From Candidatus Omnitrophota bacterium (GTDB lineage: Bacteria > Omnitrophota > Gorgyraeia > Zapsychrales > Zapsychraceae): DNA of 58,102 nt. The notes beneath the pieces were generated by a model that saw only the letters and a list, made by a program, of their open reading frames with translations, was not told the DNA's origin and searched no databases. Positions 1-20,945 of this stretch are shown in pieces; position 1 is the first letter of the stretch; each line of letters opens with the position of its first letter. A program made the translations under genes and the position numbers. The DNA is taken from positions 1-58,102 of the forward strand of contig JAHJCZ010000184.1 in assembly GCA_018812705.1 (NCBI GenBank), read 5' to 3'.

Positions 1-3000
1 AAACTATCTATTTCCTGCTGAAGCCTGTCGCTTAAGTCTCTTCCAACTAACATCCAAGCATGTCCCGCCTTAGCGATCTCTTCTAGCTTAACAGCATAAT
101 CATCGTCAAGCTCCACACCATAATCTTTAAGATCTTCCATATACTCTAAGAAGTACTTAAGCATGCTTAATCTTTCCCCAAAATATTCAAAAGACAACTT
201 TCTGGCTTCTTCTTCATCTAGCCCAAGAAGAATATGGCCTAGGATTTCATGCCTATCTATATCACTAACAAGATGTACTGCTTTCTTTTTGTTGACGACA
301 TTAAAATACCAAGTATGTATGAAGAGTATATTCTGAGTCCTGTTGTATGTCATGATATGCTTTTCAGTTGCTTTTACACTATCAGTAATAACGATACCAA
401 ATTGTGAAGGTAAGGAAGGAACTCCTCTTTCTTTCACATCATCTAAAACTGTATTAATTCTATGTTGCAAAGTGCTCTCTTGGCCTACAACAAAGCTGTC
501 TCCACTAACATATTGAATTCTATATTCTTGCCCCCGAAGACCATTAACCAAAACGGCTTTTGCCACTGTTCGCTGTCTGCCAGAACCAAGCACGACTTTC
601 ATCGGAACAGCTACTGGATATGCTTCTAAATCTGATCCAGGATCTTGCTTGTTGCCCTTGCCTGAATATTTTTTGCGCATTGTAAATGTTCTTTTAACTA
701 CTAGCAATGATCCTGCAAAAGCAAGCATAGCTAAAATAAATCCCACCCAATGATCAGCTGCTGACTTAACAGCACTTCTAATTGAGTGTTTGATCTCGAA
801 AACAACTATCTCTCGATCAATTGCATCAAGATGTACGTTCAATTCTCTAGCAATACTTTTATATGCTTGTGATATTTTATAAAATTCATCTGAATCTTGA
901 GATACGGTCAATACCTTTTCTTGTGCTACTGCATATTCAACAACCTTGTCTTCAATATATGGATTAACTGGATATCCTGTTGTTTTTAACACCTCCGTCA
1001 TTGGCTGATGCATATATCCCATTAATATGATTACACGCGTATTTGCATCCATAGCTAAATCCTCAATAACATCCTTTGCTAATTTTCTTCCACGAAGCTG
1101 ATTAATTGCCTTCCAGTCATAATCAACATGTCCATATATAACTCGATCTAACTCAGAAACCATATATTCTAAAGATGGCTTTTCTGATACAACATCAAAA
1201 CTATACCCTTCATTTTTCTTGCGAGCCAAGTAAGTCATCATTGCGCGGTAATAACCATTAAGCTCAAAGTCTAATCCATCAACATTTCCAGATACAAATG
1301 CCTGTAAAATCATGTCCATATTTTCCTGAGATTTACTATGCTGTGCTGTCAAAAATGGTTCAAAAGCAAATTGATATTCTTTACTGTCTACCAATTGTTT
1401 TGGGTTCATTCCTGGGAAATAAGCATTGAAACTTTCTACTGCATATCCTGGCATTAACAAATTGTTCTCAATATAAATTTTAAGTTTTTGACCGTTGTCT
1501 TTTGCCTCACCAAAAAGATTATCTAAGTGCTCGCTTACTAACTCAAAACACTCTTTTGAAATATGAATTGCATAAACTGGATGAATATCTATATTTTGAT
1601 TTTGTCTTTGTACTTCTGAAGCGTTTGTAGTTAGTGTATTAGTTGAACCTCCAGCAGACGACGGTGCAAATGCAATAACTGCCATGAAAAACAAGGCAAC
1701 AACAATTGTTGCCTTGAATAATTTATTTTTCAACAATCTTCGTATTAATAAAATACTCGTGATTACTGCTCCAACTCCTGCCAATACCGAAGCAACTACC
1801 CAGCCTGACATAACTACTGTTCCAGTTGCCCCTACAACAGCTAACACTTCAACAGCTGCGAACCCTGCATTATTACCTTTCGGCCCTAATGTCTTGCTTG
1901 GATCAGAAGACTCATTCTCACTGCGCTCTGAATCAGCCGCATCAATAGATTCTATTATCTTAAGGACTGCCTCACTGTACTTTCTGCTAATTTGCTTTGA
2001 TGACTCTTTCTGCCAATTAATACTTTTTCCTAAGTCAGCAGCTTCAGCTGCCTTTGTAAACCCTGTAAAATATTTCAACCATGCTACTTGTCTTGGATTT
2101 ACGCTTCCTGTAATGTCATACCCCTTCTTTCGCAGAGAAATACCTATAAGCGCGAACTCATCAAAGTTAGCAAGTTCTCCACACACACATACTGGAATAT
2201 TATAAATTTTTGCAATAGCACATGTTTGAGCTATCCAAACAATGACTTGTTTATTCAAAATATTACGCCCTACTTCAATTCCCATCTCCCTATCAGTATG
2301 AGTTATACAAGCTTCCGCATCATTACTTCCAAAATTAATAACTGCTAGCTTTCCAAAAACCTTTATCATCTCTGCTAGCTCATCTACAGCCTGAGGTGTC
2401 TCAACCATGATCCCCAAGTTTGCAAGGACCTCTTCCTTAAACTCAGCCCTAACTTCATCAACTATCTCTTTAATTCCTTTTGCTTCACTTTCAGTATTTA
2501 ACATTGGGAAAATAACCTGAACTTCGACCATGGGCTTTTCTGTTGTTTCCAAATACTGCTTCTCTGCTGAAGCTGTTGAACGAAGAGCAACTTTTAAACA
2601 CTCCCTGCCAATATCACTAAGCAAATACCATTGTGAACCTTCTAAAGTTGAAGTTGGGTCAACATTTGGCAGTTTAATATTTGCTTTATCTTTGTCTGGC
2701 ATTCTTATTGTCAGCTTTAACCTCTTACCATAAACTTCTGCGGTCTCCTGCAATTGCTTTATAATACCTAGGATCGATCCTGCAAAAAGATCTACTAATT
2801 TCCAGTCGCCATATCCTATTTTAAGAATTAAGAATTCAAATCTTAATAATCCAACTCCTTCAAGGTCTGCCTTTCCTATTAATTCTACGATTTTATTGCT
2901 ATCTGCAATATTATCCAGATTTACTGATATTGGTATTTTCGCGCCATCTTTTGTCTTACAAGTTGAAGTTACTTTTCTATGGGCTTTTTGCAGGAGTCCT

Positions 3001-6000
3001 TTTAGAATATTTTCAGAATCAGAATATTTAGCATACATTTCTTCATTAGGATTTATTATTAGCTCGCCGGCATGAGCATCAATAATCCCATATTCTCCTC
3101 CGAGTAAATTCTTGTAAGCAGAACCTTTTGCAATATTTCCATCTAAATACATTCCAGTAAGAGTTACCAGCCCTAAACTTCTTGCAAGAATTGAAGCATG
3201 TGCATTTTGTGTTCCAAGTTCAGAAACGATCGCTACTACATTATATTGATAAGCAATCTTTATAATTCTTAACGGCGTCATTTCATGCATAACTAGAATG
3301 ACATCTTTATTTTCAACACCGTTTTCTTGATTTAAATATTCTGAATTCTTAAGGCCTGAAAGTATTACCGGTAGATCTTTAGCAAATTCAACAATGGTCA
3401 TACCAATATTTGGGCTGGTCTTCATCATATCTTCACCCATTTTAAATATCTTGCTGATACCAATTTCTACAGCACCGATTGCACTTAAAATGCGGCCTTG
3501 TTCATCTTTTTCTCCAATTAATTCCTTAGATTTCTTTTCTAGTGAAGAATATAGCCCTTGTCCAATAGCAAAGCCTTGTGCTTCAGGGTTATCTTTTAAG
3601 CTTTCTTGAATTTTATCGAACAAAGCAACTTCTCGCCTATATACTAAAAGAAATTTGGCTTTTTCTTTTCTTATCAATCCTTCCAAATCATCAGTCTCTT
3701 CTAAATATCTATCTTGGTCACTTATAACAACATCCCCTTCTACAACGATCGTTCCTTTTGCAATTCTATGTTCATATGAAGCATTACCTCTATAAATAGC
3801 TTCCTTTCCGTCGCTTGAAATATCGTTAAGATCTGCTTTAAAAATGGCCTCTGTTCGTACTCCATATATCTCTGGATTATTAAGAACACTGATAGTCGCT
3901 TTTAATGTTTTAAGATTTTCGGATAAATACTCAATTGTCTTTAGGAGGGCTGTCGCTTCATCATTAATACCTTCTGCGTGGAATCTTTCATGTCCTTCAA
4001 AAACACCCTTAAGGAATTCTAGGTAAGTCTCTTTTTCTGTTGAACTTAATGCAGCGATTCTGTCTAATACAGACGTGTGGATAAATATCTTGTCTTCATC
4101 ATTATTGAATAGTACGATTTGTGCAGTTTCAAATGCAGTGATTGCACCCTTTGTGTTGCTAAGGTTATCTGTTACATACACAGGTGGAGCATTTGACAAG
4201 TATGTAACAGCTTCAAACAGATCTTTCAATGCCTGCAATTGTTGATCGTCTAAAATATTTTGGGCTGGATCAAGGTCAAATACATTACCAACTCTTAGAT
4301 CTATTGTTGTAGCACCATCTAAGACTTCTTCATTATCAGCATAGCTTATCGGTGTATACGGTGCGGCCATTGGCATATCGTATACTTGCGGTACCATATT
4401 CCAAGATCCGACATCATTTCCATTGCTATAAACACCTGAAGCTGCGATCTCAACAGTTTCAGTCTCATTGCTTGATCTCTCAACATCTGCAACAACAAAT
4501 GTTCCTGCAGCAGTTACATATTGACCATTGTCTGATGATACAGCATCAGCCTGTATTAATCTTTCTTTTTGATCTCTTGATTCCTTAGCACCATCAATGC
4601 ATTCTGTATTATCGGCTATTTTATTATTTAACCCAAACCCTGCTGTAATAATGAACTCAAATAATTCTATTGCTGCAAGGGCTAGAGAGAGAGCCTTTCT
4701 TCTTTTACTAGATGTAGTGCCCACATTCACAACCTTCACATCATTATTATTACGAGCCACTCCAGCCACGGAAAGAGTCGATAATTTTGAATGTGATGGT
4801 TGTGAATGCTTTGAACGGGCGAAATGTTTTCTTAATAGTGAAAACATTAATATTCCAGCTGCTGCAGCTGCGATAGTTGCAACAACCCAACCTAATCCGT
4901 TCATTGCTGAAATAACGACAATGCCAATACCTGCTATTGCTACAGGGACTTCGATCGCTGTAAATCCTTCCTGGCCTCTTTTTCTTGAAATTTGTTTGCT
5001 TTGTTTATTTACTGCGGCAGGAATAAGATTTTCATCGCCATTTGCTTCGCGTATCAATCTTGCAACCTTAGAATCAACTAAACTTAGAATATATTGTTTT
5101 GCTTCTCCTTCTCTTCTTGAATCAACTTCCTGAACATCGACCAATGAATGCTCATCAACAATTGTCAATCCTGGATTTTCAGCTTTAACAGCCTCAATTT
5201 CTTTTTCTGATAACCATCGTACAGGTCCATAATACTGCAATTGTTTTGATTTGAAGATGTCTATTCTGTCGCCTAAAGTCTCTTTACTCTGTTTGTAATT
5301 ATTTAGAAGAAGGACTTTCACAGCTGCGTCAAATCTTTGTCCAACCCATCTCGAGATCATTTGAGTCATTTGATGAATAGTCAGTCCAATATTTTCAGAT
5401 TCATAATTTGCGTTCAAGATCATTGTTGAATCTTTCAATACTGTTCCGATTCTCTTATCCATTAAAAGTGGTGCTGATGAAGTAACAAAACTTGAAATAC
5501 CTGTTAATTTAATCTGAGCTCCTTCGATAGCTTCCTGAACACCAGGAACATCTGCATCAACTCTTGCACCATAAAATTCAACATGAGTTATTGGTAATTG
5601 GCCGAAAGCAGGTGAATGAGAAATTTGATCCTGATCATATATTGTAACGCTGTACAATGAGTTCTCTTCTTGTCTAACTGTTTTAAGAGCCAAACCTTCA
5701 TAATGAGTAGGTGTTGGGCTGACATTGATTCCCATTGTTTCAAAATATTTTTTGTAAGCTGCGATAATTCCATAAGGATTGATCGTTTGATCTTCATAAC
5801 CTTTATATTGTAAGATCATGCCCTTCATCATAAGGTTCTTCATGCTTTGGCCGACTAGATCGATCTTTCCGTTTGTTACAAACTGAGCATCTATTACTGC
5901 AGCTGCTGCTAAGCGTGATCTTCTATATTCTTCGAATAAAGTCTTCTCACTTTCAAGGAATGTTACTCTTGCAAAAGCTTCTGTCAATACTGCTACCACA

Positions 6001-9000
6001 CTGTTGCCATAATATTCTGCAGTCGCTCTATCCTTGATACGCATGCTTTCAATTTTATCCATCCATCTTGGGATGATCCCTGAAACAGCTTTAGTTGGAT
6101 CTCCGTCTGCTGTAACCCTTAATCCCCACTCTTGTAAAAATCCACCTTTGATCAAGATAGTAGAGCCTCCAGCATCTTCCTGATTATGCAATGTCATTAC
6201 ACGCGGCATATCTCCAGATACTTTTCCAAGATCCTTTAGCTGTCTCCAAAGTTCTTGCAATACTGTCAATAATGCTTTACTGCTTCCACCACCGGCAAGA
6301 ATAACTGCCCAGTAAGGTTTTCCGTTAGAATAGATATCTTCTACCGTCCCTTTATTATTCTTAAGCGTCTCTAGGTTTGACAAGATTATCTTTAAATATG
6401 ATGTAAGATTTAAAACACCTTCAACATCATTAGCTTGTTTATAATAATCATTGAATGTTACAACTACATTATTCATTGAAGTGTAAGCAATTTTTGTTTC
6501 ATAAACAGCAGCTGCTATTCCTCTTACTGCAGCTATTATTGCTTTCTTAATATCTTCATTTGTTTCAGCAACAAGTAAATTCTCTAGTGCGTAAATAGCC
6601 TTAACTGCTGAATATCCAATTAAACCAAGTGTTTCTATTGCGATCATCTGCTGTCTTGCATCAGGCTTTGCAGCCATAATAATGATTGCATCTAGCGCTG
6701 CTTGTTTTCTTACCACGATGCTTGATTCATATGCTGCAACGATCTCCTGTGCATTTTCTGATACTTGAATCTGCTCCGCGAACACAACGCGATCTTGTTC
6801 ATAAACAACAGTTCCAATTGCCAAGCGTAGATTTGGAATTGGGTTTGCAGCTAATGCACCTGTCATAAGAATTGTATTTGCTGTTGCATCTGCTCTTTGA
6901 TCTTTTGCATCAAGCAGCTTTTCTAAGAAGAAAACAATTGTTGCTCTGAAAGCAGGATTCATTATTGGCATGATCCTGTCAGCTAGGACATATATTGCCT
7001 GCATGCGTACCCAGTAATAACCTGATACCTGTGTTTGATTATCAGCAATGATCTCTGTAAAGAATTCTGTAATACGGCGAAGCTGCAACACTGTGCTTCT
7101 GCGTGCAATGCGGCCTAAAGCTTCAACAATAAGGATCATTTTTTCTGTTTCAAGAATAACCTTTGGATGTGCAGCAACTATTCTTGCCTGAATTGCATCC
7201 ATTTCGCTAGCGATCTCTTCATTGTTTGCATCTTTTTCTAATTGTGCTCTTAACTCTTTATATCTAATATTGTCTTCTACATATTGTGTGTTGCTGCTGC
7301 TCGATACTCCTTCTCTGAACCATTTTATCAATGCTGCAATATCCTCTTTGCTATTTGCCTGAGCAATGTTTTCTTTAGAAGATCTGCGAAGAATGATATT
7401 TCTAATAACATTCTTATTTGTTGTACTTCTCCAAGCTTTAGTCTTATTGCTGTATATAGAAAGCTTTGTAATCGTGTCAATTGGGAATCCGCCTTTTAGA
7501 TCGTGCCATTCATTTTCATGACTATCAGACATAGGAGGTTGAGGAAGACGTCCTCTGACCTTTTGAACCAAATCATAATCTGCTTCAATAATAACTGGAA
7601 CGCTACCAGTAGCCTCTAAAGTGTGTGTATCCATAGCAAACTCTTTAGCAACAACAGGACTGAAGCTCCATGGAACATTATTTAATCCATCAGCCCATCC
7701 AAGCGCGATCTGCCCATTATCATCTCTATACAAATTCTTTCTTAATGACCAAAGCGTTACTCCTCTAAACATCTTTAACCCGCTAGTAGTCACAAGTTGT
7801 CTTGCTTTCTCTATATCTTTAAACTCACTAAGTAAACCGCGTGCATTGCGAACAATTGTTTGAATGTTTTCATCAGTAAATAATACCTGGCCTTTATTTG
7901 CTTTTGCAATTCTGATGATTTCTTGAATTGCAAAAGTCATTCCTTGCTCATTACCTGCGATCAATACAGGATGTAATTCAGATCTCATGTCTGCTGCAGT
8001 TTTATTTGCAACGATCAATGATCTGTTAAAACCTGCTTGCTGGTAACCTGGATAATCATTTCCATTTTCACCAACATTATCACCTGCATAAACCATATCT
8101 AAAGCAACTGGCTGCTCTTCTCTTACTACTGTTAACGCGTTTTGGTTATAATCATCAACTGAAATAAGCTTTCCGTATTTTGTAAAAACCTTCATGTCTG
8201 CTGCACCATTTCCAACAATGATCAAACCTTGTCTAACAAATGCATTGCGCTCGATCAAACGACCAACAAGCCTGCTCATATTGTTTCCACTGATAGCGGC
8301 ATAAACGCCACCCATATCGATCAATTCTTCTATTCCGTCTCTTGTAGGACTATTATGAATACCTTGAATACCTTTAACATCTGGACGTGGTGATGATAAT
8401 ACTGTTCCATCAACATCTGCGGCAAAAATAGTTCTTGTCTTTCTTACATCAATATACTCACCTGCACGATATCCCATAAGATCTAACAAATCACTTAAGC
8501 GTCTTTCTAAATAAGCGATCGCAAGAGATTTGTTAACACCTTTTCTATTAAACTCAAGCGTTGCTTTTCCAGCTTCTAAGACATCTACTGAATATCCAGC
8601 AAGTTGTGCCTCTAACCTCTCGCGAATAGTTCCACGGCTTAGGAAAAATCCTCTTACAGCTACTTGTGATGCTGATCCGTCTGCTTGAAGATTTCTTAAC
8701 TCGATGCGTATTTGTTCATTTTTTGTGCTTACATCATCAGAACCTTTTCTGATAAGTTCTCCGTCGCTAAGGATAGTTCTGTCATTTGCAAATGCCTCGG
8801 CTATTTCAACAAGGAAAGGATTCCTTCTGATCGCTTTAATGAATGCTTCATCACGAGCATCTTCTGAAGAAGCAACAGCATTGCTTATGTTTTTAAATAA
8901 TTCGCGAATTGCAGCTGCTGCTATTTTGACAATTTGATCAACTTGCTTTTTAGATAAGTATGTTGTTCCATTGTTTGCTGCAGGAGCAGCTTTAACTTCT

Positions 9001-12000
9001 CTTGATGCAGATGCTTCAGGAGCAGAGAACTCATCTCTCTGTCCGTGTAATGCTGGGTCATTTGCATATGTAACATTTTCCATTCCTTCTTGAGACATCT
9101 CTTCATCTAAGTACCATGCATTCTTTACATCCGTGAATGAGCTGTTTGACAATGCTGATCCTGTACTTAGAATGCCATTAATATCGCTATCTTTGTTCAA
9201 GTATTGTGTAATTGTTAAATCAATATAAACAGGGTCGTTGAAATCTTCAACAACTACAAATAAATGCGGGGTATATTTCTCAGCACCATCTTTTTTGATT
9301 TGTAATAAAACTCTTCTTACAGATACTTTATTATACCCAAGCGCTTCCAAAGCCTTGACCACAACTGCTGAAACAAAGTCACAATATCCGAATTTAGCTA
9401 CATCTAGTTTTTCTTTAATAACAATTCTATTAAACATCCAATTAACTGCTGCTTCGAAAGATGCTTCCTGTAAATATGCTTTACTAGAATTTACATCTTT
9501 CAAGATATTCTCTGCTGTTTCAACAACATTGATTTGCGCGGTATGAACTACTGCTGCTCTTTCCAATAATCTCTCTGCATCTTGTCTTTGAACACTGCTT
9601 GAAATCATAGAGCCCTCATTTCTGCGGAAAGAACCAACATATTGACCAGCAACATTATTGTTAGCCGCAAATAAAGCTTCTAGTTCTGACTTCTTCATCA
9701 TCATATATGGACGAACATTTGCATCAGTTTTGCTGTTTGCTAAAAATCCTTTTTCCCCATTGATCATTTGAATAATCATGACAATCGCAGCAATTGCTAC
9801 AGCAGCTGCGATACTGGTAACAACCCATCCTAATCCGCTCACGGCTGATATAATCACACTGCCAATGCCTGCAAGAGAAACTAAAACTTCTATGCTTGCA
9901 GATCCGCTGTTTGCATAATTGTTATTGCTTGCTCTATTATTGGTTGGCCTTGGATTTCCTTCGATCTTTCTTAGTGGTTTATAAACATCATATTCAATTT
10001 CAACATCGTCTTGAACTTCACCATTAGCATCAACTACTCTAACAACACCATTGATTATCACTGCATAATTACCATCTTCTAATCTTACCAATGCTCTTCC
10101 TTCATCATCTTCGTCATCCATTTCAACCAACTCATCATATTCAATGCTTACTGTATTTTCATTATTCAATGTATCAATAATTGTTGCATCAGTTAGAATA
10201 TCAATTTCTACCTTGCTTACTTGCTTTCCATTTAGAGAAAGCTCATTATCATCTTCCATAGTTGCTAATACTAAACGTGCTGCCAAAGGATTCTTGATCG
10301 ATCTAACAATTAATTTCTTTCCGGTCATTTTAGCTTTTTGTGCAAACCAATTGTTAACTGCCCTTGCAACTCCTCTTTCTCTGAAATATTTTTCGACTTC
10401 AATATCACTTAGTTCAACTGCATCATCAGTTTCTTTGAAATCTGTAAATCCTGCATATTGATTGCCAACATAAATATCAAAATATTCATTATCCCATTTC
10501 TGCTCTTTACTCTTGATCAACTTAACAGTAGCGCCATCTCTTGTTATTCCGACAACAATAACCGTGTTTGATTCGTTTTTCTCTGTTCTTCTTGGCTGTC
10601 TGTTTGATGTTTTAACTGCTGCACTTCCAGCTGCAACTGCATTTAATACTAGCGCTGGAACTAATTCTTCTTTTCTCATCATCATTACTGTTGTAGCTGC
10701 TGCTACTAACATAGCTGTGATCATCATCAATGTTTGAACTGAAACACCTGCAACGGCTACAGCTGTGATACCAGCTAATGTAAGAGGAACTTCAACAAGT
10801 GTGAAAGCTTCTCTTCTTCTGTCTGTTAATGGCCTTCTTGTTGTTTTTACTTCTTTGGAAGGATCGATGAATAATTTGTTTAATAGAACAACAATAATTG
10901 TTGCAAGAATTGCTGCGATAATGAATGGCGTTACCGTAGCTGGGGTGCTGATCTTAACACCTGTGTTGATCACAGTTGTTGCTTTTGGAATGATGTTGAT
11001 CAATGTGACTGGTGATTCTGCTCTTGCTTCATCATAAATACCTTTCACTACAAATCTTCCTCTTGCCCCGGCATCAACTAACATTGCATCTTCATAACCT
11101 TGTGCGCTTAAGAACTTAGCCATATCACTTAAAGGATTTCCGTATTGTCCGACAAATACATCATCTGTGAAGATCAATGACCATGTACCGTTTGAATGCT
11201 TTGCTAATACTGATTTTGTTCCAGCTCTTGAAGATGTAAGCACGTGTCTGCCATATGTTCCGTTCTCTAATACTATTGGTCCTGCCTGGAATGCGCTGTC
11301 AACTTTACCAGTTTCTGTTGCTCTCTTAATTTCATATCCTTGTGCCTTTGAAGCGCTCATGATCTGTGGATTACTTCCTTTATATTGAACGAATAATGCG
11401 CCAGCTGATCCGTTCGCTTTTTGCTTTCCTTGTGTCTCGCCATCTGCATTGTAAGCCTTAACTTCATTCCCGTTGATAACAGCTAAAGCTGCTGGTGTTT
11501 TATTACCATTCTTCTTAAAGAAGTAATTAGCATTAATAGCTGCAATTGAATCTGGTCTTACCACTGTATCTAATACCATGTCGTATTTTGCTGTATCGAA
11601 ATTAAGAACATGTACTAATTCACCATGTAACATTTTGTATCTTGCGAATGTCATGTTTTCGCCAACTTCTACTGATTCATATTGATTGTAAGCTTGACGT
11701 GCTGCTGTTTGAGCGTTGCCAAAGAATGCGGAAGGAGTAACTTTCTTGCTGCTGAAATCAAATCCTGCAAAAGCCAAAGCGCTAAAGATAACTACTGCTG
11801 TAATAATACCAGTTACTCTCTTAGCTTTTGAACTAACAACAACCTTTACATTGCTCTTTGCTAATATTGTTTTTCTTAATGATATCGCGATAAGAATTGC
11901 TGCCGCGCTAAGGCCTATAACAATTACAGTAAATACTGATAATTCTGAGAAGGTAATAGCTGCTAGTGTGATGCCTGCAACTGCAAGAGGTGCCTCGATT

Positions 12001-15000
12001 ATTGTGAATGCGCGTCTTGCTGATGTTCTTCTTGAATCTGCAGAATTTCTATTTGATAAGCCAAATACTTTTGAAGTTGATACTACTGCCGCCACGTTCT
12101 TAATATTTCGAACCACTCCAACCACGGATAGAGTCGATAATTGTGTAACTGAAGGCTGTGAATTATTTCTTTGGGCTAAAAATCTTCTGAATGCCGCTAT
12201 AGATAAGATCCCTAATCCACCTGCGATCAAACTTGCAACTGCAGGTGTTAGGTCTGAAATGTTTTGTGCTAAGAAGCTTGCTGTCATAACCGCTAAACCA
12301 ACAACTGTGATCACAACAGGAACTTCGACTAATGTGTATCCGCTGTTGTTTCCTGCTTTTCCTCTATTATCGCTATCGTTACCTTCATCCTTTGAGTTAA
12401 GTCTCTTGATAGTTGCTCTGATATTTGCTTCCCAATCTAATGCGTCATTTCCTTCTTTATAAGCGTTTGCGAAAAGTTCAGCTGATTCGTTTAATAAGCT
12501 TAATGCTTTTGCTTGATCACCAGTATCATATGAAGCTGCAGCGACTACATAAGCAATAGCTGCTTTCATATAATTGATACTTGGAACATCTTGCTCTAAT
12601 ACATTTGTGTTTGCCTGGAAGAAGTTTTCAACTGTTTCTGCAGTTATGATAACATCTTCTTTTCTTCCTGCTTCATAATAGCTATCCATAAGTGAAGCAA
12701 ATACCATCAATCTATCCATTGCAGACATATGTGTTCTTTCAGAAGAAGCTAAGTGTTCCAACATCTCTACTGCTCTTGCAACTTCGCCATTATTTTTCTT
12801 AACTTCAGCAAGTCTTTCATAATTTCTGTAAGCTTCAGTTAATGCTGTAAGAATTTCAATAACATCATTTGCGTTCACTGCAGGGAATACTGCTTGTGGC
12901 AATACTGCTAAAGCTTCTTCATAACAGCAAATAGCTTCTTCAAAATCATTATTTCCAACTAATACATCTCCGATATCTTTCATGTTTGCTGCCTGAACAA
13001 CTTGACGTTTTGTTTGTGTATCGCTAAGGATCGCTTCAAAAGCTTTTCTTTGTCTTGCATCAGCAATGTCAGTTAGCTTGTTTCTTAATGCTTGGATCTT
13101 CTCTTTATATTGTCTGCTTAACATTTTGTTGATTTCAGATAATTCAGCTCCTGCATTCTCAACAGTTAGAGCATCTCTTCTAGCATTTTCAAGAACGGCA
13201 ATAGCTTCTCTGCTCTTATCGTCTTCTAATAATTCAATCGCTGTATCGAGAGCAACGTTAATATCTTCAATTGTTTTGGCCTTTGATGGGAATACTTCGA
13301 TGATAGTTACTCCGTTATAAGAAGATGCGCCAAACGCTCTTGTTTTTCTTGCTACTGCTCTTGCTCTTCTTGCATAATCAATTTCTACTATTCTGCTTGA
13401 TGTGTTGCCCGCATCCACAACCTTCACATCCTTATTATTACGAGCCACTCCAGCCACGGAAAGAGTCGATAATTGTGAAGATGATGGTTGTGAATGTTTT
13501 TTACGGGCAATATATTTTCTGATCAAAGCTAACATTAAGATTCCAGCTGCTGCAGCTGCGACAACTGTAGAAACCCAACCTGATCCGCTAACCTGCGCGA
13601 ACATAGCTAACATAATTGGCCACGCATGAGAATGTAATGTAGTGCTGTTATTGTTTTCTGGTTGATTTACTCTTGCTTTGTTGCTTACTTTTTGATTTTT
13701 AAGGGAAACTCTTATCTTTGAATATTTGGCAGGAACTATGAGGTTGATACTTGCGAATTCTATATTGATTTCAGAAGCAGGAACAACTCCCACTACTATT
13801 CCTTCAGCATTTATAGCCTTAACCAAGAGCGCACCTTCTTGAATAGCTTTTAATATTTTTGCTCTAACAGCATCTTGTAGTCCTTCAGGAACTTCACTTG
13901 CTAATAATGTAACTTTAATAACATTATTTTCTACTTCTCCAATAAGAGCATCTTTTGAAATATTCTCAATAACTTCCTTTACAATCGCCTGAACTTTTTT
14001 ATAATCATTTTTTCCTTCAGAAAACGCATTGAATATATGCATTACATTCCAACCTAATACGCGTAGGATATTCTCGAAAGCTACTTTAAACTTAACAACT
14101 AATACAACCGTTAATACCGCATTAATGATTGCAATTATGCCTACTGGGATAAAAGTGATCGGAGCAAATATAATACTTAACATTAATAAAGCCAACGTTC
14201 TAAACCATATTTTAACAGCCTGTCTTTGACCAAACATTTCTGACAATCGCCATCCAGATAATGTTTGTTTACTGCTATCATTCTTATCAGTCTCAACATA
14301 AGTATCAAATACATCTGTACCTGTTAAGAACGCTATAACCGCTAATAAATATGGGACTACAAACAACATACCAATTAATGTTGAGAACATCGTTGAGAAT
14401 ATAAATCCAGCAATTGCAACGATTGCAACGATACCAGAAACAGGTATTCCTTTTGTTGTAGCGTTATTCATATGGTGAATAATACCTGCAATAACAAAGC
14501 TAATAGCTGATCCAATAAGAGCATATTTAACTATCCAGCCAAGACCTGCTGCAACAAAACCGGTACCCACAAGAAGCCCGCCAACAAGACCTAATCCTGC
14601 AAGAATAATGCCGATTCTAAAGAATCTGTTCTTTACAGTACCATCTAACTGCGCTCTAAATTTGAAAAGCCTATTGCTTTGGAAACGTGTGCGACGATCT
14701 TGAACACCAAATACTGGCTGTTTTAATGTAGGAACAAACGAGAACATTTCATTAGCTACCTTAACACTTGCCTCCGCAAAACCGATGATCATTGATACTG
14801 TATAAGGGAAGGCTTGAACTGTATCTTTAGCAAATCTCCCTATTGCCTTCCAGAAATTACCGGTAATAAACATATGGCGCAAGAAGTTGAATAAACTGAC
14901 TGAATTCATCATAATAACGGTTAATGAAAGGAAGGCGATAACTGGTTTAAGGTAAGCAAATCCACTGAATGGTTGCAAGAATGGCAATGCAACTAATATA

Positions 15001-18000
15001 ACAACCGCAAGCATTGATGATAAATAATGGAAAGCGTTTTGTAATATGTTCAACTTGAAATCTGTCCCAACAAATTTATTTGTAAAGGTCTCAAACATAG
15101 CTGTCGGTAAAATTAACTGTGCTACGTTAAATGTATAACGGCTTTCTGTTCCAAAAACTGATTCCGAATGTAGAGATGGACGTGACCATTCCCAAACAAA
15201 GTATCCTTCACAAGTTGCTGTTGCTTCAGGTTCCATATTTTTCTGGATCATAAAAGCACCAGAGTCTTCTACAGGAGTCATTAATAATGTATCCCCAGAT
15301 GCTGGGTTAACAATACCTTTACCATAGAACAATGTTAGATCTTGGTATCCTAGCTGTGATACTTGCGTAAATGTTTGTTGCATCATTTTATACATGCGTC
15401 GTCCTGGGAAGGCATAACTACTTGCACCCCAGATCAAGAAGGCCGGGTTCATAACAACATATTCTGGGTTACGTCCCATATAAGCAGCCGTATTAAGTCT
15501 GTATGGGTTAGATCCTGGCATAACACGAACAAGCGCATCCTGGTTAGCAGATAAACTTCCTGTTAACCAAATATTCACCCCAATTCCACCATTCTTGAAT
15601 GTTGAAAGAATCTCATCACCTGCGTAAATAGGAACATGCGCATTGGCTTTATGTTGTGTATTAAATACATTCGCAAAGTCGACCATTTCTTTAAACTCTT
15701 TAGCTTTGGTGTAATTCTCCTCCATAAAGTGTTCATATTCTGCTTTTCTGAACCCAAGAATAACATTAGCGAATTCATCTGTTGACTCGAATAAGAAACG
15801 ATCCTGACTTTCGCCATCAACAGCAACAACGCGATTATGAGCTTCAGCTTCTCCATAAAGATTAACTATAAAGTGATAGAAAGCACGATGAACAGAAATA
15901 GGATCACCTTGTTGTGCAGCTTCAGATTCTTTTCTTCCTTGATTAAATAGTTTTGCTACTGGCAGAACACCCCACTGAAGTGTTTTTGATTCACCCTTTT
16001 CTACAACATTAACAAGTGTTGTTAATCGACGAATTAAACTGTTTTGTGGATTCGCATTTTGCCACATAGTAGTCATCTGCAACATTTGGAAGATCTTAAG
16101 TTCAGCCATCTTCTTATAACCCTTTTTGCCATCTTTGGATTCAAATTCATCAACAAAAACTTGCATAAGTCTTGCTTTTTCCACGTCAGAAGCTCTTACG
16201 GCAGCAATCTCTTGATCTGTCCAATTATCCTTAGCCAATTGAACCGAACCAAACTGCTCATCAGCTAACTGAACCGCATGACGATAATCAATATTTCCAT
16301 CGTTATAAGCTGCTGCCAAATGAACAGCAATAACATCTTTAGCAAAACCATCTAATACAGCCATATTAGCTGCATCAAGTTCATCAAGAACAATACCAAA
16401 TATTTCAGCTGCATCTGCATAAGCTTGAGGATATTTCTTTAATATCTCAAGGAAGTTTGTTCTTTCGTTAGCACCTTCAAGCTCTTTAACAAGAACATTA
16501 TGCCCACGCTTTCTAAGTTCCTTAAGAGCATTATTGTATTCATCTGGATGAGTACGCACTAAATAACCGAACATATTTGCTTCAATTGTACCATGCTCGC
16601 TAGCTATTTTTAGAGCATAATTAACAACTGTCTTAAGAATAAAGTTTGCTAAGAATAATCTCTTTTCAAGAGCTTCCTCATCAATTGCATATTTGTTAGC
16701 TATCGGTTCTAAAGGACCTTCCCATTTAACACTTTTACCATCTTTACTCATTACAGCTTTCAACTCTTTTAAAATATCATTTCGCTTGTTTTCTGGCCCT
16801 AATAAGATTCCCTTAAACACTGCCTCACCTAAATTACTAATAGTAAATTGTGGCATATTTTTCATTGCTGTTATTATATCGCCAAGCAGTGCAAATCTTT
16901 CAAACCAATTAAGTCTTTTTTCTTTTAGATGACCATTAATGATTCTCTCTAACTCTCGTATTTCCTTTCTCTTAATCATCAACGACATTGTTCCTGGACG
17001 AATATACTCTTCTAATTGATGACCAACGATTTCATTGTATGACTGAACATGTGTTCCCATTTGTTTATGGCGTGCATATGTATCCATTGGAGTTCGGCGG
17101 TATGCGGGTGACATCATGTTCATATAAAGATATTCGCGTGCCTGTTCACCTTTGAATTCTGGGAATTTTTTACCTAAGTATGCTGCTTTAATTAGAGCTT
17201 CGACGTCCTCATCAGAAATACGATATAAACGCTTTAGGTCTGTTGCAAGACTTCTAATATGCTCAACAAACAAAACGTTATTAGGCATAATGTAACCATA
17301 ATTATTTTCAGCTGAACCGTATTCTGCGTTAAGAGCTCTAAAATAACGTGCGTCAGATGCAAATATACGGAAAATAGCTGCGAACATATTAGCTCTACCA
17401 CGTGCACGCCTGCTCCAAAGATTATTGCGATAGTTATAATATGCCTTACCAGCACGGGCAACTTGAACTAATGACAAGACACTAACTACTGATAACATAA
17501 GTAACAATACAACCGTATTGATTGCACCAGCACTTAACCATACAACTGAATAATATTTTCCAAAAACTAACCATGACATACCACCCATCAAAGATGAGAA
17601 TGCACTTCCAACAAACGCCCATAATGCTTTCTCACCTCTAACTGGCATATATGCAAATAGCAATGGCAGTGTTATTAAGGACATCGTTGCCAAGAATACA
17701 AATAAACCAACTTGAGCCGTTAAATATATAGAAACTACAGAAGATGCAATACCTACCAACATTAATCCATATACTAACGCACGTACCTTAGCAGATCGAA
17801 TTCCCAAGATATCTTCCAAAGTAGTTTGATACTTGCGTCCGAATCGATTATTCTCAAATTTGGCTAAATAGCCTACGAACAATCCGAATATTCTGTAGCG
17901 CATGAAACTCCACCAGCCCTTGCTCTCAGCTTGTTTCTTTTCCGCTTTATTAGCATATGGTGAACGTTCCCCAACGATCTTTTGGAAATGATCTCTAAAC

Positions 18001-20945
18001 GGCCTAAATAAAGGCAGTAATATATTGTTGAAATATTTATCAAATGTATTTCCTTGTTTTACATTAGCTCTATAATTTTTACCGTAATCCTGCATATCTT
18101 TCCAGGTAGCTTTTGCTTTTGCAGCAAGTGCTTCAGCAATTTCTTCTGTATTTGTAGCTTTTGAATTCTCTAGTGCCGCTGCTGCTTGCTTAAGCATTTC
18201 TTCATACTCTTTAAAGATGCTTTTGTTGTATGAAAGGTCCGTCTCTGAACTTACTTCTTCTTTGCGCATACGTTTAGTTAAGTCAGCAAAGACAAGTGTC
18301 ATATTTTCATCATACAGTGTCTCACTTAAGCGTAAGTTAGGTTGTTGCTCATTCTTACCTGTTGTACCATCAACCTTACCTGTTGTAATATAGATATAAG
18401 CACCATCTCCACCATCATTTAACTGCTTAATATTATTCATGAAGAATACATAGCGCCAGTATAAACGATTATTCTTGATCAATTTATGATATTCAGCTAT
18501 CTGATGGCTGCCGTAAACATTATCGCGGTTATGTATCAAATATGCCGTTAAAAATAATACTTGTGTAAAAATAAGGCCATCCCCACCTAAAGATATGCCG
18601 TCTGTTTGTTCTTTAGGTGCTTGTAAATATTTAAAGACTACATACTCTTCATAAGTTACTGCTTCAGATGTTTTAAGAGCCGCATTTGGATTAACAATCA
18701 ATTTCATATCTTTTGGTTCAACTACACCATTCTTTATTGTTGGAAGACGTGATGGTCTTAAAGATACATAGAACATTAATTCAGCAATAACTTGCTGATA
18801 GAATAATTTTTTCAGCTCATCAAACTTGATTCCAAAACCATGCTTATTAAGAACTGTGTCGATCATAGGTGTTAATACATTGTCACGTACATAACCGATA
18901 ACATCTTGTTTAAAGTTTGTAAATCCTGCCAATTTCTCTGCAAACCTGTCATCTTTTGCAAGTAATTCAACGGCAAGGCGTGCTTCCGGTGTCATTAATT
19001 TCCTTAATAATACGTGATCTTTAGTGGCGCGTTGTTCAACTTCACGTTCAAGCTGTTTCTTCAATTCATTTAGAACAACCGCTTGTAAGATACTTGCATC
19101 ATCTTCAGCAGTCTTCTTATCTTTTGGTTCATATTTCTTTCTATCTCTTAAATACTTAGTACGTACCTTTACAGCCACTGTTACAAGGCGTTTTAATAGG
19201 TCTTCAGCCTCTTTATCTTTAAGGTCAACATTGTCAAGATAATAAACTATAGCAACCGCATCAATAACACCTGCTTTTGCCATTTTCTCAATTTGCTCTA
19301 ATAATGGTCTACTTGTATCGAATGTTACTTTTTTATTATCATAGTAATTTTCATGAACTTCTTTGAATGTTAATTTTCCACTTTCATAAGCTGCAACAAT
19401 GCTATCAATTTCTTGTTTATCAAAACCCTCTTCTCTTAATCTGTCTCTAACAACCCTACCATCACGTCGTTTTTCTAATTTCTCTAAAGAGCCATCCGTT
19501 TTTACACCTTTGACCAATTGATCTAAAGCTGCATCGAATGTTTTGTATTCCGCTGGTGTCAATTTACGCTCTTTGCGTTGAACATCTAAGAATATTCTTA
19601 ATACAGCAACCTTCATCTCAAATGAATAAGCACGTTTAAAGTTGGAGAAACTATCACGATCACGCTCTTCAAGTTTAAATTGTACTAAAATATCTTTAAA
19701 TAAATGTTCAACTTCCGGACGTTTACCTGCTACAAAAATGCCACCTTGTGCTTCACGGGATACTAGCTTCCTAGCTAAACGTTTAGCTTCAGGTTTGCTT
19801 ATTCCTTTTTGTTTTTCAAGAACACGGGCAATATCTTTTGTTATTCCTCGATTAGCATTAACAGAACCAAAAGTGCGATTCCATAAACGACTTATCATGC
19901 GATAAACTTTTGAGTCTTTGATGCTTGAGATAAGAGTTAATAACATTACAAGCGTTAGAGCAAGTCCACCTGCAACCCACCATATGTAAGAACGAACCTG
20001 ATCTTCATAAACATTTTTACTTAAGTGTTCTGGAACCTTACCATCCCAAAGCTGTGTTCCTTCTGTTGCAAGAATTTCAAATATTTGACTCTTTGATATA
20101 TCGCTGTCTCCTGTCCATAAGCCAACTGCTATTGTATCTACTATACGTCCTGGGAATGAGTTTCTAAATAGGTCTGTCCAGGTTTGCTCATAAACATCCA
20201 AGTAAACTCTTTCGCCTTCAATCTTGTTGATCAATCGATCATAAAATTTAAATAATTTATTTTCACTTTCTCTCTGTGCTTTAACGACTGCTACAAGCCT
20301 ACCGTTTTTAACATCAAAGATTCTCACATTAACTTCGTTAATATTGTTTGAATCTGGAACATCTCTTATAACTCTGTATTGACCAAATGAAGTGTTAACA
20401 ACTGTCATTTCATAATGGCTATATAATTGTTCGTCTAAATTAGACATATCTGCTCTTGGATCTAGGATCTTTGCTACTGCATCTCTTTTATGCTTGAAGA
20501 TACCGCCAATTTTAGTATTGTATATAGGCATATTTGAACGAGAATATGAAATACTATGATAATCTGCATTAATTTCTCGAACTACACCAGTTTTCACATT
20601 ATAGGCAATAAAGATATCCTTGTTAATAAATGCCTGTTCGCTACGATACTCAAATGGAACTTTATAAAGATATTCGTCACCATGTTGCATTAAGAATTCT
20701 GTTCGGCGAGTAACCATATTTAACGTTTTGTTAATAACTGTTTCCCCTGTTGTCGTACCTAACATAACTGATGCAGGTGCTTCATTTGCGCCTACTGAAG
20801 TACCGTCAACCGCGACATTGTCATCAAATTGCATGAACCTTATTACCTTACCTTCAACAACAACATAATCCCTTGCTAATGGATCGTTGTATCCTAAATA
20901 TCGGACAACACCCATATCAACAAATTTACTATCATCAGTATACTT
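1..20945 (-). CDS. Segment E of giant protein (>=6,980 aa, runs off left edge; absent from ORF track)
   Basis: Frame opens after TGA 20946-20948 (KYTDDSKFVDMGVVRYLG...) and is the same frame at the left edge (...AWMLVGRDLSDRLQQEIDS). No stop was found in manual translation, and the track lists no long closed ORF here, as expected if the frame has no stop inside the window. Confidence 0.93.

What the first reader, a model, noticed from the sequence alone, without database searches (positions are those of the whole stretch)
1848..13313. Six internal prepilin-peptidase (class III signal) motifs punctuate the giant protein: a candidate PilD-processed bacterial polyprotein
Seen in manual translation, each followed by a hydrophobic TM hairpin and mostly preceded by basic residues: RGKAGNNSG|YTLVEVP (12341-12324), RRTSARRA|FTIIEAP (12011-11994), TDRRREA|FTLVEVP (10808-10791), NYANSG|SASIEVL (9905-9888), RKRGQEG|FTAIEVP (4967-4950), PKGNNAG|FAAVEVL (1865-1848). 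A seventh, TM-less relic G|VTIIEVFP lies at 13313-13296. All have G/A at -1 and Glu at +5. Established: this is the signature cleaved on the cytoplasmic side by prepilin peptidases (PilD/GspO/TadV), and it normally sits only at N-termini. Here the motifs lie thousands of residues inside the chain, between unrelated enzyme domains. Inference: the chain is cut into separate membrane-anchored modules. Pro at +7 in four copies and a second TM ending in K/R suggest anchors rather than pilus subunits.
Basis: partly seen in the sequence, partly recalled or inferred. Interest (0 to 1): 0.95.

Follow-up and report, generated by a model that had tools for sequence, protein, structure and literature searches.

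The report
Prepilin-like hairpin cassettes inside giant protein
A giant membrane protein of an uncultivated groundwater bacterium (Omnitrophota) is divided by repeated copies of a sequence that looks like the cutting signal of pilus subunits, which suggests, but does not prove, that the cell's pilin-cutting enzyme chops the giant chain into separate anchored enzymes.

Summary
ORF A (window 3-20915, minus strand, at least 6971 aa, no stops) carries all seven motifs at the stated coordinates.

- **Not chance:** six strict copies, against 0.0055 expected from shuffles. The motif opens 7 of 18 hydrophobic clusters in ORF A, but 4 of 2045 in ordinary ORFs.
- **A repeated cassette:** each copy has a basic, Asn-rich leader, G/A at -1, F/Y at +1, Glu at +5 and a helical TM hairpin. 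I found 22 internal copies in giant ORFs of this genus.
- **Homology blocks end at cassettes** when the two genomes of the genus are compared.
- **Link to pilins:** a profile of the cassette also finds genuine prepilin N-termini. The genome has one PilD-type peptidase.
- **Cautions:** only 1 of 7 copies passes TIGR02532, against 10 of 10 real pilins. Some orthologous sites have lost the motif. Cassettes are rare outside the genus.
- **Cleavage is untested.** I give PilD processing about 0.4 and an uncleaved anchor of pilin descent about 0.35.

My searches found no paper describing this, and it bears on the open question of whether Omnitrophota giant proteins are cut.

The parts
3..20915 (-). 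ORF A: giant multi-domain membrane protein, 6971 aa from its ATG, running off the contig at its 3' end
   Evidence: Pfam domains show that it is coding.
12183..12377 (-). Cassette 1: leader ...GKAGNNSG, then G|YTLVEVP (12341-12318) and a TM hairpin
   Evidence: 76.4 bits. It is the only copy to pass TIGR02532 (18.1 bits against a cut-off of 16.3).
11853..12047 (-). Cassette 2: ...RRTSARRA|FTIIEAP and a hairpin. A third TM follows and leads into the NAGPA module.
   Evidence: 73.7 bits
10650..10844 (-). Cassette 3: ...TDRRREA|FTLVEVP and a hairpin
   Evidence: 77.6 bits
9747..9941 (-). Cassette 4: ...NNNYANSG|SASIEVL and a hairpin
   Evidence: 79.9 bits
4809..5003 (-). Cassette 5: ...SRKRGQEG|FTAIEVP and a hairpin
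   Evidence: 99.7 bits
1707..1901 (-). Cassette 6: ...GPKGNNAG|FAAVEVL and a hairpin. A third TM follows.
   Evidence: 66.8 bits. Its ortholog lies in G001:C38.
13497..13616 (-). Degenerate cassette: the second TM and the tail are kept, but the motif and first TM are replaced (..HSHAWPIMLAMFAQV..)
   Evidence: The best-matching G001:C19 cassette, at about residue 3234 (62% identity), is intact (G|FTIIEMP).
13290..13313 (-). Relic motif G|VTIIEVFP with no TM after it
   Evidence: The matching position in G001:C19 has G|FVKIE followed by TMs.
4659..4682 (-). Weak second motif A|LAAIELFEF, with a doubtful TM, after the tail of cassette 5
12093..12212 (-). Conserved tail after the hairpin (..QPSxSxLSTLSVxGVxRN..). 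Other copies lie at 4737-4856 and 13425-13544.
   Evidence: DNA repeat families D1 and D2 and the protein text
4744..4786 (.). 43-nt exact repeat shared with 13432-13474. One contig in run X5 joins the two copies, skipping 8688 nt in frame.
11040..11546 (-). NAGPA (phosphodiester glycosidase) domain, predicted periplasmic, between cassettes 2 and 3
   Evidence: E 2e-07. Topology.
5271..5870 (-). CofD-like domain between cassettes 4 and 5
   Evidence: E 3.9e-09
2079..3308 (-). PEP-utilizers mobile domain and PEP-utilizers_C, between cassettes 5 and 6
   Evidence: E 2.4e-07 and 1.4e-17

Best explanation
ORF A is a giant, membrane-threaded, multi-enzyme protein of an Omnitrophota bacterium. It is divided by a repeated cassette about 65 aa long. 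Each cassette has a disordered basic, Asn-rich leader, a class III (prepilin-type) signature (G/A at -1, F/Y at +1, Glu at +5) and a tight two-helix TM hairpin. Some copies also have a conserved tail.

Shown:
- The cassette is real and far above chance, and I found it only inside giant ORFs.
- It is related in sequence to the N-termini of this lineage's own prepilins.
- It marks the boundaries of modules that differ between genomes.
- The genome encodes one PilD-type prepilin peptidase / N-methyltransferase.

Inferred:
- Each cassette inserts with its N-side in the cytoplasm.
- PilD cuts after the G/A on the cytoplasmic face.
- The chain therefore behaves as a polyprotein that yields separate enzyme modules, each anchored by a hairpin or by three TMs. 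The modules are NAGPA (periplasmic), a 1600-aa CofD-containing module, a PEP-utilizing module, a C-terminal HExxH module and two or three small hairpin-plus-tail peptides of about 100 aa.
- The products are anchors, not pilus subunits.

The same cassettes probably also act as in-frame joints at which modules are exchanged or deleted.
For: 1. G or A stands at -1 in 22 of 22 internal cassettes of genus g1, F/Y at +1 in 20 of 22 and Glu at +5 in 20 of 22. The copies are only 22-58% identical, and Glu+5 is the only invariant column of the 12-copy alignment.

2. The leaders prefer Asn at -4 and -3 (8 and 11 of 22), as do this genome's 21 N-terminal pilin-like ORFs (9 and 7 of 21). Those ORFs also mix G and A at -1 (15 G, 5 A, 1 S).

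3. The cassette profile recovers genuine N-terminal prepilins over its positions of about 5-40.

4. In the copies from three other genomes (G158, G159, G379) the G at -1 is kept in 7 of 7 and Phe at +1 in 6 of 7, while Glu+5 is kept in 2 of 7. I recall, without checking here, that a prepilin peptidase needs G-1 for cleavage but not E+5. On that basis this ranking is what selection for cleavage, rather than for pilus assembly, would give.

5. Plain TMs flank the same kind of module in a distant giant protein (G035). The motif is therefore not needed just for anchoring.

6. There is one A24 peptidase. It has A24_N_bact (121 bits) and both Asp motifs visible in the text (IIPDE, GGGD), and it is complete in G001.

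7. Large homology blocks shared with G001 start at -3 of cassette 1, end inside cassette 6, and restart at a TM that aligns with the second TM of a cassette.

8. Counting TMs puts every motif's N-side in the cytoplasm and NAGPA outside.

9. The ORF is continuous in contigs from other studies.

10. West-Roberts et al. 2023 (passages read) say that whether and where giant proteins are cleaved is open, and that T2SS/T4P-like loci and small class III-signal genes lie next to giant genes.
Against: - No cleavage data exist.
- Only 1 of 7 copies passes TIGR02532 and 0 of 7 passes Pfam N_methyl. All 10 real pilins tested from this genome pass TIGR02532, at 19.5-36.7 bits.
- Pro or Leu at +7, a Gly/Ala-rich first helix and a second TM are not pilin-like.
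- My searches found no report of a prepilin peptidase cutting far from an N-terminus.
- Sites are dispensable. The cassette at 13497-13616 has lost its motif and the site at 13313 has lost its TM, while G001 keeps both. The C-terminal module follows a full cassette in G001:C38 but a plain TM in ORF A.
- Cassettes are rare outside the genus. There are 2 in a 54,849-aa ORF, 1 in the 6,666 aa I read of a 32,560-aa frame, and 1 strong plus 3 weak motif-plus-TM sites (no full hairpin cassette) in an 8,370-aa ORF. There are none in ORFs of 33,383, 11,238 and 3,209 aa.
- In a hairpin, Glu+5 lies near the basic end of the second helix. Its conservation could therefore be structural.
- The 22 copies include orthologous pairs and paralogs, so they are not independent.
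- If the weak hydrophobic segment at aa 5407-5429 spans the membrane, the N-side of motif 6 would face outward.
- The core G-[FL]-T-x-I-E-[IV]-P also occurs in BspA-type leucine-rich repeats, which topped the library search by adding up many weak matches.
Confidence: 0.4

Rival explanations
1. Uncleaved anchor of pilin descent. The cassette arose from a prepilin N-terminus, or converged on one. It now serves only as a TM hairpin that staples the continuous giant chain to the membrane. Its conserved residues have structural roles: a small residue at the interface, and Glu+5 paired with the basic end of the second helix. PilD does not cut it.
For: 6 of 7 copies fail TIGR02532, against 10 of 10 real pilins that pass. 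AlphaFold2 predicts a hairpin with Glu+5 near the cytoplasmic end, beside the basic end of helix 2. The motif or the TM has been lost at some sites without the ORF being disrupted. Plain TMs do the same job in relatives. My searches found no precedent for internal PilD cleavage.
Against: This does not explain why G/A at -1 holds in 22 of 22 copies. It does not explain why the disordered leader keeps the same Asn preference at -4/-3 as real pilin leaders. It does not explain why G-1 and F+1 outlast Glu+5 in other genera. A near-consensus site in the right topology would have to escape a peptidase that I recall, without checking here, as being broad in specificity.
Confidence: 0.35
2. Recombination joint. 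The main role of the cassette lies at the DNA level. Repeated, in-register sequence lets modules be swapped, deleted or duplicated in frame among giant genes. The resemblance to pilins is then just inherited. This could hold together with either explanation above.
For: The repeats are diverged but include a 43-nt exact match (4744-4786 and 13432-13474). One contig in run X5 joins the two copies, skipping 8688 nt (2896 codons, in frame). ORF A and the giant ORFs of G001 are mosaics whose shared blocks end at cassettes. The 1595-aa module was not found in G001 with this query.
Against: Most copies are only 22-58% identical in protein, too diverged for frequent homologous recombination. The X5 joint rests on one contig of depth 4 and could be a k-mer collapse. 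A DNA-level role does not predict conservation of G-1, F+1 and E+5 at the protein level.
Confidence: 0.15
3. Docking element for the pilus or type II secretion machinery. With or without cleavage, the pilin-like helix would engage the assembly platform of one of the many T4P/T2SS-like systems, to place or export modules.
For: The genome has at least 11 T2SSE ATPase matches and 7 T2SSF platform proteins. West-Roberts et al. 2023 report T2SS/T4P-like loci next to giant genes (passage read). Glu+5 is needed for pilin assembly in model systems (recalled, not checked here).
Against: The second TM returns the chain to the cytoplasm, so extraction into a fibre is hard to picture. Most downstream domains are cytoplasmic enzyme types (CofD, PEP-utilizing). 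No pilin globular domain follows.
Confidence: 0.07
4. Artefact: a misassembly, a miscalled ORF, or separate genes run together.
For: The contig is made only of giant ORFs and contains repeats. Logan contigs of run X1 break at the 43-nt repeat. Run X3 shows two single-A insertions (behind 3443 and 3998) and run X4 shows a 1-nt deletion at 15544.
Against: The frame is stop-free for 20.9 kb at 37% GC and contains real Pfam domains. X3 contigs from another study span motifs 5, 4 and 3-1 at 99% or more. X4 covers 3998 without the insertion. No difference makes a stop. The sister genome keeps cassettes inside frames of 2352-5508 aa.
Confidence: 0.03

Closest known systems
Type IV prepilin / class III signal peptide (TIGR02532 IV_pilin_GFxxxE; Pfam PF07963 N_methyl), cut by PilD/GspO-type A24 peptidases
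   Same: A basic leader, G or A at -1, F/Y at +1, T/A at +2, Glu at +5 and then a hydrophobic helix that enters the membrane with its N-side in the cytoplasm. The leader shares the lineage-specific Asn at -4/-3. The cassette profile finds real prepilins.
   Different: The motifs lie 2,859-6,351 residues inside the chain and are repeated. Each is followed by a second TM (a hairpin) rather than a pilin globular domain. Position +7 is Pro or Leu. Only 1 of 7 reaches the curated cut-off, against 10 of 10 real pilins. Cleavage and methylation are unknown.
Omnitrophota giant proteins ('Archaeovorin'-type; West-Roberts et al. 2023 bioRxiv 10.1101/2023.11.21.568195, passages read)
   Same: The host is an Omnitrophota bacterium (GyrB). 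The genome has many giant ORFs with numerous TMs and scattered enzyme domains. A divergent SecA module lies in the neighbouring giant ORF. Whether such proteins are cleaved is an open question.
   Different: That paper proposes C39 and S8 peptidase domains as the cutters and says cleavage points are unknown. The passages I searched do not mention internal prepilin-like motifs (0 occurrences of 'prepilin'). ORF A itself shows no SecA, C39 or S8 domain at E up to 0.1.
Polyproteins cut at internal signal sequences by a membrane signal peptidase (for example flavivirus polyproteins cut by host signal peptidase; recalled, not checked here)
   Same: This is the same logic as proposed here. A single chain is threaded through the membrane by internal signal or anchor segments and cut next to them by a resident membrane peptidase into separately anchored products.
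   Different: The enzyme class differs (A24 aspartyl peptidase against a serine signal peptidase). The side of the membrane differs (cytoplasmic against lumenal). The setting is a bacterial chromosome, not a virus. The comparison is an analogy only.
Predicted proteins with two or more prepilin motifs (P0019, P0048, P0053, P0082, P0099, P0110, P0149 from the library search)
   Same: A second class III motif sits internally, after a first pilin-like unit.
   Different: These are small (116-535 aa) and look like tandem pilin genes read as one, or like duplicated leaders. They have no hairpin, no enzyme modules and no giant context. I did not verify them.
BspA-type leucine-rich repeat (LRR_5), consensus ..CSGLTSIEIPNSVTSIG..
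   Same: The core G-[FL]-T-x-I-E-[IV]-P-x-x-[IV]-x-x-I-G is nearly the same string. These proteins topped the library search.
   Different: Their scores are sums of 7-15 weak repeats. Those proteins are soluble beta-strand repeats without TMs. ORF A has no LRR_5 hit. I treat this as a chance resemblance of a short motif.

Membership tests
Prepilin-type N-terminal cleavage/methylation domain (TIGR02532 / PF07963) | Score over the curated cut-off of the family model | tested here: not met
   TIGR02532: 1 of 7 segments passes (cassette 1, 18.1 bits against 16.3). Pfam N_methyl: 0 of 7 (best 17.5 against 21.2). Control: 10 of 10 real pilin N-termini from this genome pass TIGR02532.
Prepilin-type N-terminal cleavage/methylation domain (TIGR02532 / PF07963) | G (or A) at -1, a hydrophobic or aromatic residue at +1, Glu at +5 and a hydrophobic stretch after | tested here: met
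   7 of 7 in ORF A have G/A at -1 and E at +5, and 6 of 7 have the hydrophobic stretch. Across the genus, G/A holds in 22 of 22 and E in 20 of 22.
Prepilin-type N-terminal cleavage/methylation domain (TIGR02532 / PF07963) | Position at the N-terminus behind a short leader of about 5-30 aa | tested here: not met
   The motifs start at residues 2535-6351 of the chain. No stop or start lies just upstream.
Prepilin-type N-terminal cleavage/methylation domain (TIGR02532 / PF07963) | Cleavage after -1 by an A24 prepilin peptidase, and N-methylation of +1 | not testable with these tools
   The enzyme is present. No proteomic or biochemical data exist.
Type IV pilin / pseudopilin (structural subunit) | A single alpha1-N helix followed by a globular pilin domain | tested here: not met
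   A second TM follows after a turn of 2-4 residues. The downstream domains are enzymes.
Flp / TadE-type pilins (PF04964, PF07811) | A match to the family model | tested here: not met
   Flp_Fap reaches only E 0.81 for one segment. TadE gives no hit at E up to 10.
Omnitrophota 'Archaeovorin'-type giant protein | A giant ORF with numerous TMs and a divergent SecA DEAD module | tested here: inconclusive
   ORF A has about 12 TM clusters but no SecA hit. SecA_DEAD, SecA_PP_bind and P-loop_SecA lie in the co-directional giant ORF at 32091-51503. ORF A is cut off by the contig end.
BspA-type LRR (LRR_5) | Tandem LRR_5 repeats and a Pfam match | tested here: not met
   There is no LRR_5 hit in ORF A at E up to 0.1. 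The segments are TM helices.

The most novel reading that the evidence does not exclude
The prepilin peptidase PilD doubles as a polyprotein-processing enzyme. Giant ORFs of this Omnitrophota lineage are translated as one chain threaded through the membrane. PilD then cuts the chain on the cytoplasmic face at internal class III-like sites. The products are separate enzyme modules with N-methylated N-termini, each anchored by a hairpin, plus small hairpin peptides. The same cassettes serve as in-frame joints that let modules be shuffled between giant genes. This would be the first bacterial polyprotein matured by a class III signal peptidase, and the first defined cleavage points in an Omnitrophota giant protein.
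Probability: 0.35. Interest if true: 0.9.

Novelty: new variant of a known kind. Interest (0 to 1): 0.7.

Why it matters
Omnitrophota encode the longest known bacterial proteins. Whether these work as single chains or are cut, and where, is stated as an open question in the passages I read of West-Roberts et al. 2023.

The cassettes found here give concrete candidate cut sites and name a candidate enzyme. Both can be tested with a simple reporter or by searching metaproteomes for N-termini at +1.

If cleavage is confirmed, the known substrates of prepilin peptidases would extend from short-leader pilins to internal sites in polyproteins. It would also show a bacterial counterpart to the way viral polyproteins are matured at membranes.

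Even without cleavage, the cassettes are useful. They mark module boundaries in otherwise unannotatable giant ORFs, and they show that a pilin N-terminus has been reused as a repeated membrane anchor.

Tried and rejected
- **Near-length homolog search.** A search of ORF A residues 2400-6971 for proteins of 3834-12200 aa returned only the window's own protein. I did not run the 'shorter' or 'longer' searches, so split or fused forms were tested only through the cassette profile.
- **Cassette profile against 1.84 billion representatives.** It gave 163 hits at E up to 0.001, of which 150 were listed and I read 23. The top hits are BspA-type LRR proteins scored by summing 7-15 weak repeats, and I rejected them as relatives. 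Of the sequences I read, only two carry the full cassette. P0079 repeats the C56 ORF text, and P0005 carries the G001:C38 cassette. ORF A itself did not appear, so very long proteins may be missing from that library.
- **Complex prediction.** G001 PilD with the cassette alignment gave no verdict (scores 0.34, 0.24, 0.29; the mark is 0.32). This counts neither for nor against binding.
- **Sequencing runs.** No RNA holder is listed, so nothing can be said on expression.
- **First related-loci scan of genome contigs.** It found no relative. Records of the window's own genome may be left out of that tool.
- **DNA pattern search for GFTxIE.** It gives no frame lengths, so it could not serve as a census. 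Dropped.
- **The 1595-aa module (aa 3722-5316).** It was not found in G001, G004, G033 or G035 with this query. That answer had no positive control.
- **Flp and TadE models.** No significant match.
- **ORF N-termini.** I considered that the giant ORFs might each start with a class III signal. The N-termini of the five ORFs in the window do not.
- **Another genetic code.** Rejected, because the frame is already open under table 11.
- **Supplements.** The supplementary domain and TM tables of West-Roberts et al. 2023 and of the 2026 preprint could hold relevant topology calls that I did not see.

Full report
**What is there.** The window is one whole contig (C117) of a 2.69-Mb metagenome-assembled genome with 195 contigs, 92.8% complete. 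The contig consists of five co-directional giant ORFs on the minus strand. GyrB places the genome in Omnitrophota: the best hit is 93% identical and most of the 80 loci kept carry Omnitrophota titles. The finding lies in ORF A (window 3-20915), which is 6971 aa from its ATG, has no stop, and runs off the contig at its 3' end. The genome holds 17 stop-free frames of 2000 aa or more. Relatives hold frames of 33,383 and 54,849 aa.

**Checking the observation.** All seven motifs are in frame at the stated coordinates. G/A at -1 and Glu at +5 hold in 7 of 7. Pro at +7 holds in 4 of the 6 copies that are followed by TMs. Hydropathy shows two helices after each of the six motifs. AlphaFold2 on the 12-copy alignment predicts a disordered leader and a helix-turn-helix hairpin, with mean pLDDT 76. 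Pfam finds NAGPA, CofD and PEP-utilizer domains between the motifs.

The strict motif with a hydrophobic tail occurs 6 times, against 0.0055 expected (maximum 1 in 2000 shuffles). It opens 7 of 18 hydrophobic clusters in ORF A, 2 of 57 in the other giant ORFs, and 4 of 2045 in ORFs of 200-1999 aa. Three of those last four are N-terminal pilins. Genome-wide, the strict motif hits 22 places: 6 in ORF A, 1 in another giant ORF, 13 pilin-like N-termini and 2 junk ORFs.

**It is one repeated cassette.** The copies align over about 65 residues at 22-58% identity, and Glu+5 is the only invariant column. A profile of the alignment finds further copies in other giant frames of this genome: two in C56 and one each in C26, C21 and C152. 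It also finds copies in the same-genus genome G001, on C19, C38, C69 and C36. That makes 22 internal sites in all, and they include orthologous pairs. G/A stands at -1 in 22 of 22, F/Y at +1 in 20 of 22 and Glu at +5 in 20 of 22. Every full-length match lies in a frame of 2352 aa or more.

Three copies in ORF A belong to a larger unit: motif, hairpin, a tail of about 45 aa (QPSxSxLSTLSVxGVxRN), then a second motif. One of these units has lost its first motif (13497-13616), and its second motif is the TM-less relic at 13313. The G001 ORF keeps both of these features intact.

**Relation to real prepilins.** The genome has 21 N-terminal pilin-like ORFs. It also has many pilus or type II secretion ATPases and platform proteins, but only one A24 peptidase. 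That peptidase has the bacterial N-terminal domain and both Asp motifs. It is cut by a contig end here and complete in G001.

The cassette profile hits these pilins, and pilins of 168 and 401 other Omnitrophota genomes, over profile positions of about 5-40. It also finds prepilins in a library of 1.84 billion proteins. The cassette leaders share the pilins' Asn preference at -4/-3 and their mix of G and A at -1.

The curated models are less kind. TIGR02532 passes 1 of 7 copies and Pfam N_methyl passes none, while 10 of 10 real pilins pass TIGR02532. The cassette is therefore a divergent relative or mimic of the class III signal, not a standard member.

**Distribution.**
- In the order (168 genomes) and in a phylum sample (401 genomes), full cassettes in giant frames appear only in this genus, apart from single hits in two genomes of a sister genus.
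- Reading around those hits showed two cassettes in the 54,849-aa frame (G|FVTIP and G|FITVE) and one in the 32,560-aa frame (G|FATLN).
- One genome of another family has an 8,370-aa frame with G|FTTIE plus three weak sites.
- All other matches are small pilin ORFs.
- Three more distant giant ORFs have none. In one of them the NAGPA module is flanked by plain TMs.
- In these outside copies G-1 holds in 7 of 7, Phe+1 in 6 of 7 and Glu+5 in 2 of 7.

**Modules and mosaicism.** ORF A and the giant ORFs of G001 share only blocks:
- One block starts three residues before the cleavage-type site of cassette 1.
- A 63%-identical PEP-utilizer block ends inside cassette 6.
- The C-terminal HExxH module restarts at a TM that aligns with the second helix of a G001 cassette.

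The 1595-aa module between cassettes 4 and 5 was not found in G001 with this query. A 43-nt exact repeat in two cassette tails is joined in one contig of another sample, skipping 8688 nt in frame. This may be a real deletion or an assembly collapse.

**Assembly.** Ten runs from seven studies hold part of the locus. Contigs from three other studies match at 99% or more, and X3 contigs span motifs 5, 4 and 3-1. The 29 single-base differences (13 synonymous, 16 not) make no stop and touch no motif codon. One run has an in-frame extra Ser in the leader of cassette 1. Against continuity, X3 has two single-A insertions (X4 lacks one of them) and X4 has a 1-nt deletion at 15544, each in a single contig.

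**Mechanism.** Counting TMs puts each motif's N-side in the cytoplasm, NAGPA outside, and the CofD and PEP-utilizing domains inside. This holds provided the weak segment at aa 5407-5429 does not span the membrane.

I think the most likely reading, at about 0.4, is that PilD cuts after G/A and releases separately anchored modules. The reasons are as follows:
- G-1, F+1 and the leader features are conserved.
- G-1 outlasts Glu+5 in other genera.
- The motif is not needed just for anchoring.
- A matching site in the right topology would be expected to be cut.

The main rival, at about 0.35, is an uncleaved hairpin anchor of pilin descent. It is favoured by the failure of the curated models, by the dispensability of individual sites and by the lack of any precedent. 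A role as an in-frame recombination joint may be added to either reading.

**Literature.** West-Roberts et al. 2023 (passages read) state that cleavage of the giants is an open question. They suggest C39 and S8 peptidases as the cutters, and they note T2SS/T4P-like loci and small class III-signal genes next to giant genes. 'Prepilin' occurs 0 times in that text and 0 times in the 2026 preprint (passages read). Searches for 'prepilin peptidase' with 'polyprotein', 'prepilin' with 'Omnitrophota', and 'prepilin peptidase' with 'internal cleavage site' found nothing relevant, judging from the listings only. PMC12075869 (passages read) describes ordinary N-terminal cleavage motifs in predatory Tad pili.

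Noticed in passing
window 32091-51503 (minus): The neighbouring 6470-aa ORF carries SecA_DEAD, SecA_PP_bind and P-loop_SecA, plus a CheR-like methyltransferase segment. This is the divergent SecA module described for 'Archaeovorin'-type giants.
   Followed up: partly
window 20894-20915, 32091-32130, 51503-51507: The five giant ORFs run in the same direction and nearly abut. ORF A's ATG overlaps the end of the 2897-aa ORF by 22 nt. The 833-aa and 6470-aa ORFs overlap by 40 nt. The next pair is 3 nt apart. ORF A and the 2897-aa ORF begin alike (MGVVRY.. and MGVLDY..).
   Followed up: no
window 4744-4786 and 13432-13474: A 43-nt exact repeat lies in two cassette tails. One contig of run X5 (depth about 4) joins the copies, deleting 8688 nt in frame. 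Logan contigs of run X1 break at both copies.
   Followed up: partly
window 12341/12342: Run X1 has an in-frame GCT insertion, which adds a Ser to the leader immediately before the G at -1 of cassette 1.
   Followed up: no
G000:C152, giant ORF residue about 846: This internal G|FALIELL motif is followed by a single hydrophobic helix ending ..FFITGC, which reads like a lipoprotein lipobox. It may be a second kind of internal signal-peptidase site in a giant ORF.
   Followed up: no
window, ORF A C-terminal module (about 3-600) and aa about 5650: HExxH strings (..DRHEILGH.. and ..GHERFHAEG..) suggest metallopeptidase-like modules, which would be an alternative self-processing activity. Pfam gives no hit. 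A homologous module lies in G001:C38.
   Followed up: no
window 12093-12212, 4737-4856, 13425-13544; L025: The tail after the hairpin (QPSxSxLSTLSVxGVxRN) is also recognisable in the sister genus (..RRGPPSLRSALASIATIVREN..). Its function is unknown.
   Followed up: no
P0019, P0082 (library hits): These small predicted proteins have three or four tandem copies of a prepilin leader plus motif (for example AFTLVELPVVSTRRRA repeated) before a normal pilin-like helix. Pro stands at +7 in the extra copies.
   Followed up: no
G000 genome: There are at least 11 T2SSE ATPase matches over the cut-off and 7 T2SSF platform proteins, but only one A24 prepilin peptidase.
   Followed up: partly
window 3443, 3998, 15544: Single contigs of other samples show +A, +A (run X3) and a 1-nt deletion (run X4) inside ORF A. 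These may be sequencing errors or strain frameshifts. X4 covers 3998 without the insertion.
   Followed up: no
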